Source: Eledone cirrhosa (Eukaryota). From it: DNA of 64,000 nt. Of this stretch, positions 1 to 62,315 are shown one piece after another. The position numbers and the translations under genes were made by a program. Location of the stretch: NCBI GenBank assembly GCA_964016885.1, contig OZ024745.1:1302001-1366000 (forward strand), given 5' to 3'. Under the pieces are notes generated by a model. It saw only the letters and a list, made by a program, of their open reading frames with translations. It was not told the DNA's origin and did not search any database. How positions within the stretch are numbered: position 1 is the first letter of the stretch; each line of letters starts with the position of its first letter.

Positions 1-3000
1 ACAGTGTGGACTGGGAGAAAGGTATCTACAGCTGGCTGTCCTTCCTAACACCAACCACACTACAGTGTGGACTGGGAGACAGTTTTCTACAGCTGGCTGT
101 CCTTCCTAACACCAACCACATTACAGTGTGGACTGGGAGACAGGTATCTACAGCTGGCTGTCCTTCCTAACACCAACCACACTACAGTGTGGACTGGGAG
201 AAAGGTATCTACAGCTGGCTGTCCTTCCTAACACCAACCACACTACAGTGTGGACTGGGAGAAAGGTTTCTACAGCTGGCTGTCCTTCCTAACACCAACC
301 ACATTACAGTGTGGACTGGGAGACAGTTTTCTACAGCTGGCTGTCCTTCCTAACACCAACCACATTACAGTGTGGACTGGGAGACAGGTATCTACAGCTG
401 GCTGTCCTTCCTAACACCAACCACACTACAGTGTGGACTGGGAGAAAGGTATCTACAGCTGGCTGTCCTTCCTAACACCAACCACACTACAGTGTGGACT
501 GGGAGACAGGTTTCTACAGCTGGCTGTCCTTCCTAACACCAACCACATTACAGTGTGGACTGGGAGACAGGTATCTACAGCTGGCTGTCCTTCCTAACAC
601 CAACCACACTACAGTGTGGACTGGGAGAAAGGTATCTACAGCTGGCTGTCCTTCCTAACACCAACCACACTACAGTGTGGACTGGGAGACAGGTTTCTAC
701 AGCTGGCTGTCCTTCCTAACACCAACCACACTACAGTGTGGACTGGGTGACAGGTTTCTACAGCTGGCTGTCCTTCCTAACACCAACCACATTACAGTGT
801 GGACTGGGAGAAAGGTATCTACAGCTGGCTGTCCTTCCTAACACCAACCACACTACAGTGTGGACTGGGTGACAGGTTTCTACAGCTGGCTGTCCTTCCT
901 AACACCAACCACACTACAGTGTGGACTGGGTGACAGGTTTCTACAGCTGGCTGTCCTTCCTAACACCAACCACACTACAGTGTGGACTGGGTGACAGTGT
1001 ATCTACAGCTGGCTGTCCTTCCTAACACCAACCACACTACAGTGTGGACTGGGTGACAGGTTTCTACAGCTGGCTGTCCTTCCTAACACCAACCACATTA
1101 CAGTGTGGACTGGGAGACAGGTTTCTACAGCTGGCTGTCCTTCCTAACACCAACCACACTACAGTGTGGACTGGGAGACAGGTTTCTACAGCTGGCTGTC
1201 CTTCCTAACACCAACCACACTACAGTGTGGACTGGGTGACAGGTTTCTACAGCTGGCTGTCCTTCCTAACACCAACCACACTACAGTGTGGACTGGGAGA
1301 AAGGTATCTACAGCTGGCTGTCCTTCCTAACACCAACCACACTACAGTGTGGACTGGGAGACAGGTTTCTACAGCTGGCTGTCCTTCCTAACACCAACCA
1401 CACTACAGTGTGGACTGGGTGACAGGTTTCTACAGCTGGCTGTCCTTCCTAACACCAACCACATTACAGTGTGGACTGGGAGAAAGGTATCTACAGCTGG
1501 CTGTCCTTCCTAACACCAACCACACTACAGTGTGGACTGGGTGACAGGTTTCTACAGCTGGCTGTCCTTCCTAACACCAACCACACTACAGTGTGGACTG
1601 GGTGACAGGTTTCTACAGCTGGCTGTCCTTCCTAACACCAACCACACTACAGTGTGGACTGGGTGACAGGTATCTACAGCTGGCTGTCCTTCCTAACACC
1701 AACCACACTACAGTGTGGACTGGGTGACAGGTTTCTACAGCTGGCTGTCCTTCCTAACACCAACCACATTACAGTGTGGACTGGGAGACAGGTTTCTACA
1801 GCTGGCTGTCCTTCCTAACACCAACCACACTACAGTGTGGACTGGGAGACAGGTTTCTACAGCTGGCTGTCCTTCCTAACACCAACCACACTACAGTGTG
1901 GACTGGGTGACAGGTTTCTACAGCTGGCTGTCCTTCCTAACACCAACCACATTACAGTGTGGACTGGGAGAAAGGTATCTACAGCTGGCTGTCCTTCCTA
2001 ACACCAACCACACTACAGTGTGGACTGGGTGACAGGTTTCTACAGCTGGCTGTCCTTCCTAACACCAACCACACTACAGTGTGGACTGGGTGACAGGTTT
2101 CTACAGCTGGCTGTCCTTCCTAACACCAACCACACTACAGTGTGGACTGGGTGACAGGTATCTACAGCTGGCTGTCCTTCCTAACACCAACCACACTACA
2201 GTGTGGACTGGGTGACAGGTTTCTACAGCTGGCTGTCCTTCCTAACACCAACCACATTACAGTGTGGACTGGGAGACAGGTATCTACAGCTGGCTGTCCT
2301 TCCTAACACCAACCACACTACAGTGTGGACTGGGAGAAAGGTATCTACAGCTGGCTGTCCTTCCTAACACCAACCACATTACAGTGTGGACTGGGAGACA
2401 GGTATCTACAGCTGGTTGCCCTTCCTAACACCAACCACATTACAGTGTGGACTGGGAGAAAGGTATCTACAGCTGGCTGTCCTTCCTAACACCAACCACA
2501 CTACAGTGTGGACTGGGAGAAAGGTATCTACAGCTGGCTGTCCTACCTAACACCAACCACACTACAGTGTGGACTGGGAGACAGGTATCTACAGCTGGCT
2601 GTCCTACCTAACACCAACCACATTACAGTGTGGACTGGGAGACAGGTTTCTACAGCTGGCTGTCCTACCTAACACCAACCACACCACAGTGTGGACTGGG
2701 AGACAGGTATCTACAGCTGGCTGTCCTTCCTAACACCAACCACATTACAGTGTGGACTGGGAGACAGGTTTCTACAGCTGGCTGTCCTACCTAACACCAA
2801 CCACATTACAGTGTGGACTGGGAGACAGGTATCTACAGCTGGCTGTCCTACCTAACACCAACCACATTACAGTGTGGACTGGGAGACAGGTTTCTACAGC
2901 TGGCTGTCCTTCCTAACACCAACCACATTACAGTGTGGACTGGGAGACAGGTATCTACAGCTGGCTGCCCTTCCTACCACCAACCACATTACAGTGTGGA

Positions 3001-6000
3001 CTGGGAGACAGGTATCTACAGCTGGCTGTCCTTCCTAACACCAACCACATTACAGTGTGGACTGGGAGAAAGGTATCTACAGCTGGCTGTCCTTCCTAAC
3101 ACCAACCACACAACAGTGTGGACTGGGAGACAGGTATCTACAGCTGGCTGTCCTTCCTAACACCAACCACACTACAGTGTGGACTGGGAGACAGGTATCT
3201 ACAGCTGGCTGTCCTTCCTAACACCAACCACACTACAGTGTGGACTGGGAGAAAGGTATCTACAGCTGGCTGTCCTTCCTAACACCAACCACACTACAGT
3301 GTGGACTGGGAGAAAGGTTTCTACAGCTGGCTGTCCTTCCTAACACCAACCACATTACAGTGTGGACTGGGAGACAGGTTTCTACAGCTGGCTGTCCTTC
3401 CTAACACCAACCACATTACAGTGTGGACTGGGAGACAGGTATCTACAGCTGGCTGTCCTTCCTAACACCAACCACATTACAGTGTGGACTGGGAGACAGG
3501 TATCTACAGCTGGTTGCCCTTCCTAACACCAACCACATTACAGTGTGGACTGGGAGAAAGGTATCTACAGCTGGCTGTCCTTCCTAACACCAACCACACT
3601 ACAGTGTGGACTGGGAGAAAGGTATCTACAGCTGGCTGTCCTACCTAACACCAACCACACTACAGTGTGGACTGGGAGACAGGTATCTACAGCTGGCTGT
3701 CCTACCTAACACCAACCACATTACAGTGTGGACTGGGAGACAGGTTTCTACAGCTGGCTGTCCTACCTAACACCAACCACACCACAGTGTGGACTGGGAG
3801 ACAGGTATCTACAGCTGGCTGTCCTTCCTAACACCAACCACATTACAGTGTGGACTGGGAGACAGGTTTCTACAGCTGGCTGTCCTACCTAACACCAACC
3901 ACATTACAGTGTGGACTGGGAGACAGGTATCTACAGCTGGCTGTCCTACCTAACACCAACCACATTACAGTGTGGACTGGGAGACAGGTTTCTACAGCTG
4001 GCTGTCCTTCCTAACACCAACCACATTACAGTGTGGACTGGGAGACAGGTATCTACAGCTGGCTGCCCTTCCTACCACCAACCACATTACAGTGTGGACT
4101 GGGAGACAGGTATCTACAGCTGGCTGTCCTTCCTAACACCAACCACATTACAGTGTGGACTGGGAGAAAGGTATCTACAGCTGGCTGTCCTTCCTAACAC
4201 CAACCACACAACAGTGTGGACTGGGAGACAGGTATCTACAGCTGGCTGTCCTTCCTAACACCAACCACACTACAGTGTGGACTGGGAGACAGGTATCTAC
4301 AGCTGGCTGTCCTTCCTAACACCAACCACACTACAGTGTGGACTGGGAGAAAGGTATCTACAGCTGGCTGTCCTTCCTAACACCAACCACACTACAGTGT
4401 GGACTGGGAGAAAGGTTTCTACAGCTGGCTGTCCTTCCTAACACCAACCACATTACAGTGTGGACTGGGAGACAGGTTTCTACAGCTGGCTGTCCTTCCT
4501 AACACCAACCACATTACAGTGTGGACTGGGAGACAGGTATCTACAGCTGGCTGTCCTTCCTAACACCAACCACACTACAGTGTGGACTGGGAGAAAGGTA
4601 TCTACAGCTGGCTGTCCTTCCTAACACCAACCACACTACAGTGTGGACTGGGAGACAGGTTTCTACAGCTGGCTGTCCTTCCTAACACCAACCACATTAC
4701 AGTGTGGACTGGGAGACAGGTATCTACAGCTGGCTGTCCTTCCTAACACCAACCACACTACAGTGTGGACTGGGAGAAAGGTATCTACAGCTGGCTGTCC
4801 TTCCTAACACCAACCACATTACAGTGTGGACTGGGAGACAGGTATCTACAGCTGGCTGTCCTTCCTAACACCAACCACACTACAGTGTGGACTGGGAGAA
4901 AGGTATCTACAGCTGGCTGTCCTTCCTAACACCAACCACATTACAGTGTGGACTGGGAGACAGGTATCTACAGCTGGCTGCCCTTCCTAACACCAACCAC
5001 ATTACAGTGTGGACTGGGAGAAAGGTATCTACAGCTGGCTGTCCTTCCTAACACCAACCACACTACAGTGTGGACTGGGAGAAAGGTATCTACAGCTGGC
5101 TGTCCTACCTAACACCAACCACACTACAGTGTGGACTGGGAGACAGGTATCTACAGCTGGCTGTCCTACCTAACACCAACCACATTACAGTGTGGACTGG
5201 GAGACAGGTATCTACAGCTGGCTGTCCTTCCTAACACCAACCACATTACAGTGTGGACTGGGAGACAGGTTTCTACAGCTGGCGGTCCTACCTAACACCA
5301 ACCACATTACAGTGTGGACTGGGAGACAGGTATCTACAGCTGGCTGTCCTACCTAACACCAACCACACTACAGTCAGGACTGGGAGACAGGTTTCTACAG
5401 CTGGCTGTCCTTCCTAACACCAACCACATTACAGTGTGGACTGGGAGACAGGTATCTACAGCTGGCTGTCCTTCCTAACACCAACCGCATTACAGTGTGG
5501 ACTGGGAGACAGGTTTCTACAGCTGGCTGTCCTTCCTAACACCAACCACACTACAGTGTGGACTGGGAGACAGGTTTCTACAGCTGGCTGTCCTTCCTAA
5601 CACCAACCACATTACAATGTGGACAGGGAGACAGGTATCTACAGCTGGCTGCCCTTCCTAACACCAACCACACTACAGTGTGGACTGGGAGACAGGTTTC
5701 TACAGCTGGCTGTCCTTCCTAACACCAACCACATAACAGTGTGGACTGGGAGAAAGGTATCTACAGCTGGCTTTCCTTCCTAACACCAACCACATTACAG
5801 TGTGGACTGGGAGAAAGGTATCTACAGCTGGCTGTCCTTCCTAACACCAACCACATTACAGTGTGGACTGGGAGACAGGTTTCTACAGCTGGCTGTCCTT
5901 CCTAACACCAACCACACTACAGTGTGGACTGGGAGTCAGGTATCTACAGCTGGCTGTCCTTCCTAACACCAACCACACTACAGTGTGGACTGGGAGACAG

Positions 6001-61784: not shown

Positions 61785-62112
61785 GAAATTTTGTGAATAG
61801 GCATCATATCTTGTCATTTACCTCTGGTTTAAATTTCATATAAATCGAAGGGAAAATATTTCCAGCGGGGGTTTGTGCCCCCTGGGAACTCTTTGATTAA
61901 AATGAAATAAGTACAAAGCGAAACCTACAGTCAGTAGGCACCTCTAACAAAAATTAACTTGGTGGGTGCTGTGGTCGGGATGTTACATATCTCTGTACAT
62001 ATATATAGTTTAACTTAAACCAAAGCCTCCAAATGAGGGAGGAAGATACAAGGCAAAACAAACTAAAATAAAGTTTTACTCACATTATATCCCTAACTCC
62101 AGTTTCTGGAAT

Positions 62113-62315
62113 TCATCATCACTGTTTTATGTCCGTTCTTCCACGCTAGCATGGGTTAGACGGGTTGTCCTGTTGTGAGCAGTGTCTGGTCGGCTGACCT
62201 TGTCTTGCTCATACAGGAACTGATCCTGGCTTGATTTCTACAGCTGGATGCCCTTCCTAACACCAACCTCATTTACAGTGGGTGCTGGCTGCTTTTTTTC
62301 CCGTGGCGCCTACAC
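62113..62315 (-). mobile_element. SINE 3' half with RTE-type tail
   Basis: Collinear with 61290-61430. Contains a single GGTCGGCTGACCTTGTCTTGCTCATA and the CTACAGCTGGATGCCCTTCCTAACACCAACC module. Confidence 0.8.

What the first reader, a model, noticed from the sequence alone, without database searches (positions are those of the whole stretch)
1..62315. One modular retroelement tail appears to seed several different satellites
Seen in the sequence: the RTE 3'UTR (plus orientation, 60719-60890) is itself a degenerate array of three 50-60-bp modules. Each reads [hairpin]-[A-run]-CAGTCC, with AC(A/G)CTGTAA(A)TGTGG linkers. The hairpins are CGTG/CACG, CCGTGT-AGGCA-ACACGG and GGTTGGTGTT-AGGAA-GGGCATCCAACT. 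Module 3 matches the 61-bp satellite, module 1 matches the 48-bp satellite, modules 2+3 are the 112-bp duplication in LINE copy A, and the next segment downstream matches the 31-bp minisatellite. The same tail is carried by SINEs (61278, 62113, 63546). Inference: the internal direct repeats make this dispersed tail a recurrent seed for tandem amplification, seen here at 2, about 17, about 67 and at least 325 copies. TE-derived satellites are known in general; several distinct arrays from adjacent modules of one tail at one locus is the unusual part.
Basis: partly seen in the sequence, partly recalled or inferred. Interest (0 to 1): 0.8.

Follow-up and report, generated by a model that had tools for sequence, protein, structure and literature searches.

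The report
Retroposon tail that spawns many minisatellites
In this animal genome, short repeated modules in the tail of a common jumping gene have grown into tandem arrays on many chromosomes, likely at thousands of sites; the process is known from plants and reptiles, but here the leftover tail could likely be used to date each array.

Summary
The core observation holds, with corrections. The 61-bp and 48-bp arrays match the modular 3' tail of an RTE-like LINE far above shuffles. The 31-bp array does not match that LINE's tail; it grew inside an older relative of it. Genome-wide the tail, shared by two LINE subfamilies and a tRNA-headed SINE, occurs about once per 14 kb. Module runs range from 1 to over 400 copies, with units of 46-51, 61 and 111-112 bp that equal the spacing of the tail's internal direct repeats. 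Of 35 module-1 arrays, 16 still end in the rest of the tail. In 1.39 Mb of sampled DNA, 7 of 33 arrays derived from dispersed repeats come from these modules (about 6-8 fold enriched), but 26 come from other repeats, so the tail is a strong seed in a genome where such seeding is routine. The window's clustering is not special. One unexplained result: monomers of long arrays carry 2-3 times fewer rare changes than the single module beside them, and six arrays on six chromosomes share one majority monomer. Selection of those arrays by likeness weakens this. It is a new animal, non-LTR member of a known kind (Ogre 3'UTR satellites, squamate SINE satellites).

The parts
1..19844 (-). 61-bp satellite (end of module 2 plus module 3); continues to about 26 kb and 428 copies; no tail remnant on either side
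21623..22329 (-). Decayed old tail copy (module 1, module 3, terminal segment, TGA repeats) holding the 31-bp x17 array (21680-22201) in place; lies between two exons of a G-beta-5-like gene
29357..32553 (+). 48-bp x68 array of an old-type module 1, followed by a few TGA repeats but no module 3 or terminal segment
53877..57420 (-). LINE copy A: endonuclease, reverse transcriptase and PHD-like finger, reading frame in two pieces; tail with the 112-bp duplication
53959..54190 (-). 112-bp x2 duplication of modules 2+3, shared with other copies of the subfamily
57450..57856 (-). 202-bp monomers at the 5' end of LINE A; a second array seed in the same element
58858..60973 (+). LINE copy B, 5'-truncated, 92.8% identical to A
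60719..60866 (+). Three tail modules; direct repeats at spacings 49 (11/14), 60 (13/14) and 112 (7-base exact repeat at 60748 and 60860)
61304..61618 (-). tRNA-headed SINE carrying module 1, module 3 and a short terminus
62126..62317 (-). Headless tail fragment of the second subfamily; its terminal segment matches the 31-bp unit
63496..63674 (+). Truncated tail fragments (no head, no module 1)
62342..62662 (+). Control: 29-bp x11 array matching a different dispersed repeat (8 sampled loci), not this tail

Best explanation
The 3' tail of an RTE-like retroposon family carries short internal direct repeats and is spread over the genome, and arrays of its modules sit inside many of these copies, likely because misaligned DNA repair or replication between the repeats expands them after insertion. 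Shown: the dispersal, the run-length continuum, unit lengths equal to repeat spacing, arrays still followed by the rest of the tail, unrelated flanks, and copy-number differences between near-identical paralogues. Inferred: expansion acts on DNA (unequal exchange, slippage or repair synthesis) rather than on the RNA, continues long after insertion, and some arrays later lose the tail or move, as the 61-bp family seems to have done. Retrotransposition itself spreads only short states such as the 112-bp duplication.
For: 100 tail-bearing elements in 139 x 10 kb; longest module run 1 (56), 2 (34), 3 (4), then 4, 5, 7, 9, 12, 35; 0 hits on reversed sequence. 19 of 19 and 8 of 8 fetched search hits held 48-bp arrays of 5-140 units. 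16 of 35 such arrays are followed directly by module 3 and/or the terminus. At C27 an 8.9-kb 112-bp array has the ORF upstream and terminus downstream; at C20 four 10-kb stretches over 61 kb are all 111-bp array. Tail remainders of long arrays are only 66% alike on average (21 pairs) while monomers within an array are 93% alike, so arrays were not copied with their tails. L186, a young SINE tail, has 9 modules sharing private changes. A 99.07%-identical duplicate of window 19845-31515 has about 45 instead of 68 units of the 48-bp array. Array edges are more diverged than centres, 7.1% against 3.3% (19 arrays, p 0.001). Enrichment 7 of 33 against 3.1% expected (p 5e-5); 4 of 24 in the strictly random 120 stretches (p 0.005).
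Against: 19 of 35 arrays show no tail remnant behind them, among them the window's 48-bp array, and neither 61-bp array examined at both ends has one, so local origin is not shown for these. Enrichment rests on 3-7 arrays, and the tail starts with two modules, which lowers the bar. Other small repeat families yield as many arrays per dispersed copy (for example 4 arrays against 3-4 loci for an 88-bp family). The 31-bp and 140-bp units do not start at module repeats. Purely local neutral turnover does not predict the low number of rare changes in array monomers. The 45 versus 68 difference could be allelic or an assembly error.
Confidence: 0.75

Rival explanations
1. Arrays exchange monomers between loci: circles or conversion tracts from existing arrays invade homologous dispersed tails, so old tails act as landing sites and unlinked arrays are homogenised as one family.
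For: Six arrays on C8, C15, C17, C25, C26 and C27 have the same majority monomer. L254 and L259 monomers are 98% alike, their tails 64%. Two 61-bp arrays on C8 are 98% alike, their tails 73%. Minor variants inside arrays fall on the columns that also vary between arrays (8.9% against 2.9%). The window's 61-bp family lies at C5 1.3 and 10.15 Mb with identical majority monomer and unrelated flanks.
Against: 25 of 28 long arrays were picked by likeness to a query array. The variable columns are also variable in short old elements, so they may be ancestral module differences or mutable sites. No shared, clearly new variant was shown.
Confidence: 0.25
2. A filter keeps monomers near the family type: mismatched monomers recombine or slip less, or a DNA-binding factor needs the motif, so only near-ancestral monomers amplify. 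This would add to, not replace, local expansion.
For: Rare-allele share: single modules of short old elements 10%, monomers of 28 long arrays 3.7-5.1%, their majorities 1.9-3.4%; 3 arrays not picked by module likeness have 2-6 rare alleles in 141 sites against 14.5 expected (p 3e-5 to 0.007). In 9 hosts the array monomers (3.8%) are less changed than the host's own single module 3 (10.3%; paired p 0.027).
Against: Only 3 unselected arrays; the 9 hosts were all picked by likeness; the reference set is small (17-34 elements); no binding factor was tested; the region's folding is no better than chance.
Confidence: 0.3
3. Arrays are made or spread at the RNA stage, by template jumps of the reverse transcriptase or by retrotransposition of array-bearing copies that keep the 3' end.
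For: Many arrays keep the 3' terminus and TGA repeats. The 112-bp duplication is spread this way. Young SINE tails already hold 9, 10 and 35 modules.
Against: Tails of old arrays are 57-75% alike; arrays reach 26 and at least 61 kb; young arrays have different monomers though their tails are 97% alike.
Confidence: 0.12
4. The tail is not special: this genome turns any sequence into minisatellites, and an abundant repeat is hit in proportion.
For: 34% of 1.39 Mb is tandem DNA; 100 non-simple arrays of 3 or more copies; 67 have no homologue at 3 or more other sampled loci and 26 derive from other repeats, including a 73-bp x139 array that matches LINE coding sequence and arrays from SINE heads; the 5' 202-bp monomer reaches about 22 copies.
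Against: 5.6-8.6 fold enrichment; fixed unit lengths recur at many loci; the most abundant dispersed family (about 74 of 119 loci) gave only dimers to 2.5-mers and one 33-bp x9 array.
Confidence: 0.15

Closest known systems
Satellites from the 3'UTR tandem repeats of Ogre LTR-retrotransposons (Lathyrus sativus, PMC7004042, passages read; PisTR-A in pea as cited in PMC9659126, passages read)
   Same: Short tandem repeats in the 3'UTR of a dispersed retroelement expand in place; 9 of 11 satellites of one species arose so; length continuum from short to long arrays.
   Different: Here the host is a non-LTR element plus SINEs in an animal; units are overlapping slices of one three-module tail; long arrays are scattered over many chromosomes, and centromere position was not tested.
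SINE-derived satellites (sSat1-3) of squamate reptiles (PMC10702118, parts 1, 3 and 4 of 5 read)
   Same: Units shorter than the element, several variants from one SINE family, arrays with a longer terminal unit reaching the element's end, more uniform when long, up to 1000 units.
   Different: There the first duplication is laid to unequal recombination between copies; here the master already holds direct repeats that set the unit lengths (46-112 bp), and autonomous LINEs carry the same tail.
Alu-, B1- and MaLR-derived minisatellites; DINE-1 and Tetris internal repeats (table in PMC9659126, passages read)
   Same: Dispersed elements as repeated sources of minisatellites.
   Different: Other element classes; no host-tail clock was mentioned in the passages seen.
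Bipartite RTE-derived SINEs and the conserved RTE 5'UTR domain (PMC5786205, parts 1-3 of 5 read, one supplement searched)
   Same: RTE 5'UTR sequence turns up in SINE bodies; module 3 lies just upstream of an endonuclease ORF in 7 of 40 metagenome loci.
   Different: Here the motif sits in the 3'UTR of coding LINEs. Whether it is the domain of that paper could not be checked: figures are not held and the supplement text had no match.

Membership tests
Retroelement-derived tandem arrays (Ogre 3'UTR type, sSat type) | Monomer homologous to part of a dispersed element beyond chance | tested here: met
   (61- and 48-bp units; 31-bp only to the second-subfamily terminus)
Retroelement-derived tandem arrays (Ogre 3'UTR type, sSat type) | Arrays found in place, flanked by the rest of the element in the right order | tested here: met
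   16 of 35 module-1 arrays, the C27 112-bp array, the window's 31-bp array; not met for the window's 61- and 48-bp arrays
Retroelement-derived tandem arrays (Ogre 3'UTR type, sSat type) | Continuum from short to long arrays, long ones more uniform | tested here: met
   run lengths; within-element identity 0.78 for short and 0.93 for long
Retroelement-derived tandem arrays (Ogre 3'UTR type, sSat type) | Element older than the array across related species (direction of origin) | not testable with these tools
   No relatives of this genome are held. Direction is inferred from decayed hosts and from module 3 in other organisms' elements.
Classical satellite DNA | Very long arrays in heterochromatin (centromeric or subtelomeric) | tested here: inconclusive
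   Longest seen 26 kb and at least 61 kb; most are 0.3-7 kb; chromatin not testable
RTE clade of non-LTR retrotransposons | One ORF with endonuclease then reverse transcriptase; microsatellite 3' end | tested here: met
   Pfam RVT_1 E 8.5e-32; Exo_endo_phos E 5.6e-4, below its curated cut-off; TGA repeats
RTE clade of non-LTR retrotransposons | Reverse transcriptase groups with reference RTE elements in a tree | not tested
No tree built; the Atlas gave unnamed RVT_1+PHD clusters.
tRNA-derived SINE (element at 61304-61618) | tRNA-like head and LINE-shared tail | tested here: met
   Rfam tRNA 28.1 bits, E 0.007, under the cut-off 29; head-module-terminus chains recur in the sample
CORE-SINE (octopus OR1 type) | CORE domain in the SINE body | not tested
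   Resemblance recalled from memory only; PMC4824008 (passages) lists octopus OR1 as a CORE-SINE; no sequence comparison made

The most novel reading that the evidence does not exclude
Thousands of old retroposon tails act as a genome-wide network: once a module is in an array it stops decaying at the rate of its own flank, because unlinked arrays trade monomers or only family-type monomers can amplify. The unique tail remainder gives each array a built-in clock, making the 'frozen satellite' problem measurable at thousands of independent loci.
Probability: 0.35. Interest if true: 0.72.

Novelty: new member of a known kind. Interest (0 to 1): 0.5.

Why it matters
How new satellites arise, and why some monomers stay conserved, are open points in reviews (PMC10048060, passages read). 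This family offers an estimated 215,000 seeds (172,000-265,000) and about 7,500 arrays of five or more modules (1,500-22,000; extrapolated from 86 and 3 in 1.2 Mb), from two copies to over 60 kb. About half keep a unique flank that dates the insertion. That allows direct tests of birth rate, of unit choice by internal repeats, and of exchange between loci. It also warns that repeat annotation here will split or mislabel these elements. No account of such arrays in cephalopods turned up in five searches of the held library; subscription journals and Repbase were not searched.

Tried and rejected
31-bp unit as the next segment of LINE tail A or B: null scores. 44- and 28-bp arrays as tail-derived: null scores and no dispersed match in 1.39 Mb. 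Stable RNA structure of the module region: z -0.03 to -1.38 for four module regions; no covariation test was run. Ribozyme or other Rfam family in the tail or LINE A: none; one twister-P1 match below its cut-off precedes module 3 in 1 of 20 metagenome loci scanned. Segmental duplication as the source of the many arrays: among 35 targeted loci only 8 flank matches of 300 bp or more, at 66-87% identity. Modules in this LINE's own 5'UTR: not found in 12 copies; 202-bp monomers are there instead. Module arrays in other organisms: none of the 40 metagenome loci showed a tandem run of module 3. A genome-wide count of module triplets was not obtained, so totals are extrapolations. A first rare-allele run had array fragments in its reference set; one search repeats it without them. 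Earlier scan notes: nothing found. The host taxon was not established by a tool; an octopod cephalopod is my recall-based guess from the repeat landscape.
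Full report
Setting. The window is G000:C5:1302001-1366000 of a 3.0-Gb animal genome. Its left half holds five tandem arrays and three exons of a G-beta-5-like gene; after a 200-N gap come simple repeats, two LINE copies and short elements. 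LINE A has endonuclease, reverse transcriptase and PHD-like matches. I call it RTE-like on architecture; no tree was built.

Checking the observation. Natural dimers from each array were aligned to five tail copies, with 300 shuffled-monomer controls each. The 61-bp unit matches 60793-60848 (73 against null max 27) and the 48-bp unit 60727-60768 (37 against 28). The 31-bp unit fails against both LINE tails and matches only 62185-62213 (28 against 25). Read on the tail strand, the 31-bp array is preceded by decayed modules 1 and 3 and followed by the rest of a terminus and TGA repeats, so it grew inside its own old copy. The 44-, 28- and 29-bp arrays are unrelated to the tail; the 29-bp unit matches another dispersed repeat at 8 sampled loci. 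The inverted repeats exist, but the region does not fold better than shuffles.

The family. I fetched 120 seeded-random and 19 fixed-position 10-kb stretches. Profiles of the tail segments gave no hit on reversed sequence. They found 100 elements with modules, in two LINE subfamilies, a tRNA-headed SINE and older decayed forms. The longest module run was 1 in 56, 2 in 34, 3 in 4, and 4, 5, 7, 9, 12 and 35 in one each. From the random 1.2 Mb this extrapolates to about 215,000 elements and about 7,500 arrays of five or more modules, with wide limits.

Arrays elsewhere. Searches scored only about 40 candidates each, so they give lower bounds and favour look-alikes. The 48-bp query had 1,430 candidates and a second, sample-derived query 1,012, with other loci. 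All 19 and all 8 hits fetched held arrays of 5-140 units. The 61-bp query (38 of 626 scored) led to 61-bp arrays on C4, C8 (two), C12 (two), C15, C17, C28 and C1142, and to 111-112-bp arrays on C9, C20 and C27. On C28 a 48-bp array, a 61-bp array and a terminus follow each other in tail order. On C27 the array has the ORF upstream and the terminus downstream. The 31-bp unit is rare: 11 candidates, with one more array on C12, again followed by a terminus.

Unit lengths. Tail B holds direct repeats at spacings of 49 and 60 bases and a 7-base repeat at 112; the second subfamily has 46 and 49. These match the recurring units of 46-51, 61 and 111-112. The 31-, 89- and 140-bp units do not fit and need other junctions.

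Enrichment and controls. Of 1.39 Mb, 34% is tandem DNA. Of 100 non-simple arrays with three or more copies, 33 have homologues at three or more other sampled loci and 7 of these come from module 1. Modules make up 3.1% of dispersed-repeat bases, giving 6.9-fold enrichment (p 5e-5); in the random stretches alone 4 of 24 (5.6-fold, p 0.005); for five or more copies 5 of 19 and 3 of 12. The numbers are small and the tail starts with two modules. The other 26 arrays come from SINE heads, LINE coding sequence and other families, some with as many arrays per copy. The same LINE's 5' end carries 1-5 or more 202-bp monomers in 11 other copies and reaches about 22 at one locus. Seeding by mobile elements is therefore routine here.

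Mechanism. Of 35 module-1 arrays whose 3' end lay inside the stretch, 16 are followed directly by module 3 and/or the terminus. Their remainders are 66% alike between loci while monomers within an array are 93% alike, flanks are unrelated, edges are more diverged than centres, and a 99.07%-identical duplicate of part of the window differs by about 23 units. This fits expansion and turnover in the DNA after insertion. Which DNA process acts is inferred, not shown. The 112-bp duplication is different: it recurs in 2 of 8 tails of the subfamily at 98% identity, so it travels by retrotransposition. The window's 61-bp family has no tail flanks and the same majority monomer at C5 1.3, 9.75 and 10.15 Mb; it has probably detached and moved.

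What does not fit. Under neutral local turnover an array's monomer should have drifted about as far as its host. Instead monomers of 28 long old-type arrays carry 3.7-5.1% rare alleles against 10% in short elements, and in 9 hosts 3.8% against 10.3% in the host's own single module 3. Six arrays on six chromosomes share one majority monomer. Most of these arrays were picked by likeness, which inflates the effect; the 3 that were not still show 2-6 rare alleles in 141 sites against 14.5 expected. Exchange between loci or a filter for family-type monomers would explain this; neither is shown.

Origin of module 3. An exact-pattern scan of metagenome contigs gave 40 loci, about half from one element family. 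In 7 the motif lies upstream of an endonuclease ORF 43-68% identical to this LINE's, on the same strand. It thus looks like an RTE 5'UTR motif that here sits in a 3'UTR. RTE 5'UTR pieces in SINE bodies are known (PMC5786205, parts 1-3 read); identity with the domain described there was not confirmed.

Comparison and verdict. Many satellites from the 3'UTR repeats of one retroelement lineage are documented for Ogre in Lathyrus (PMC7004042, passages), and several satellite variants from one SINE, with terminal units reaching the element's end, for squamates (PMC10702118, parts 1, 3, 4). Octopus repeat papers seen (PMC13282606 part 1 of 3; PMC9115989 passages) did not describe such arrays, and five searches found none. 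The finding is real and larger than the window, a new member of a known kind. Its value lies in scale and in the built-in clock. Interest 0.5.

Noticed in passing
window 20187-20459, 21428-21592, 22530-22706 (minus strand): Three exons of a G-protein beta-5-like WD40 gene; the 31-bp array lies between two of them.
   Followed up: partly
window 19845-31515 and G000:C5:9757408-9769076: 99.07%-identical duplicate including the 61-, 31-, 28-, 48- and 44-bp arrays; the 44-bp array runs at least 28 kb there. Segmental duplication or uncollapsed haplotype; it would duplicate the gene's exons.
   Followed up: partly
window 57450-58430; G000:C4:173175184-173179630; C1:366541286-366549461: The LINE's 5' end is built of 202-bp monomers in variable number, with arrays up to about 22 copies and a higher-order unit of about 1.3 kb.
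   Followed up: partly
L234: A LINE tail is followed directly by the 5' monomers and ORF of another copy, a head-to-tail pair.
   Followed up: no
window about 57165-57190 and 60695-60715: A short stretch near the LINE's ORF start is the reverse complement of a stretch in its 3'UTR just before module 1 (seen; weak profile hit).
   Followed up: no
L132:1-9993: 73-bp x139 or more array whose unit matches LINE coding sequence at 19 sampled loci.
   Followed up: no
L220:442-498: Twister-P1 ribozyme match (41.3 bits, below the cut-off 67.2) directly before the module-3 motif in a metagenome contig.
   Followed up: no
L043, L063, L171; L041, L069, L261; L040, L145, L261; L148, L174: Other dispersed families that repeatedly give arrays: units of 88/54/45, 93/81/65, 85/72 and 93/91 bp.
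   Followed up: no
window 47300-47430, 51140-51240, 51500-51700: A short non-simple repeat recurs inside the long TA/CA tract (same translated motif in several frames).
   Followed up: no
window 32687-45538: 44-bp array with a variable CAC tract, no stop codon in three plus-strand frames and no dispersed match; origin unexplained.
   Followed up: partly
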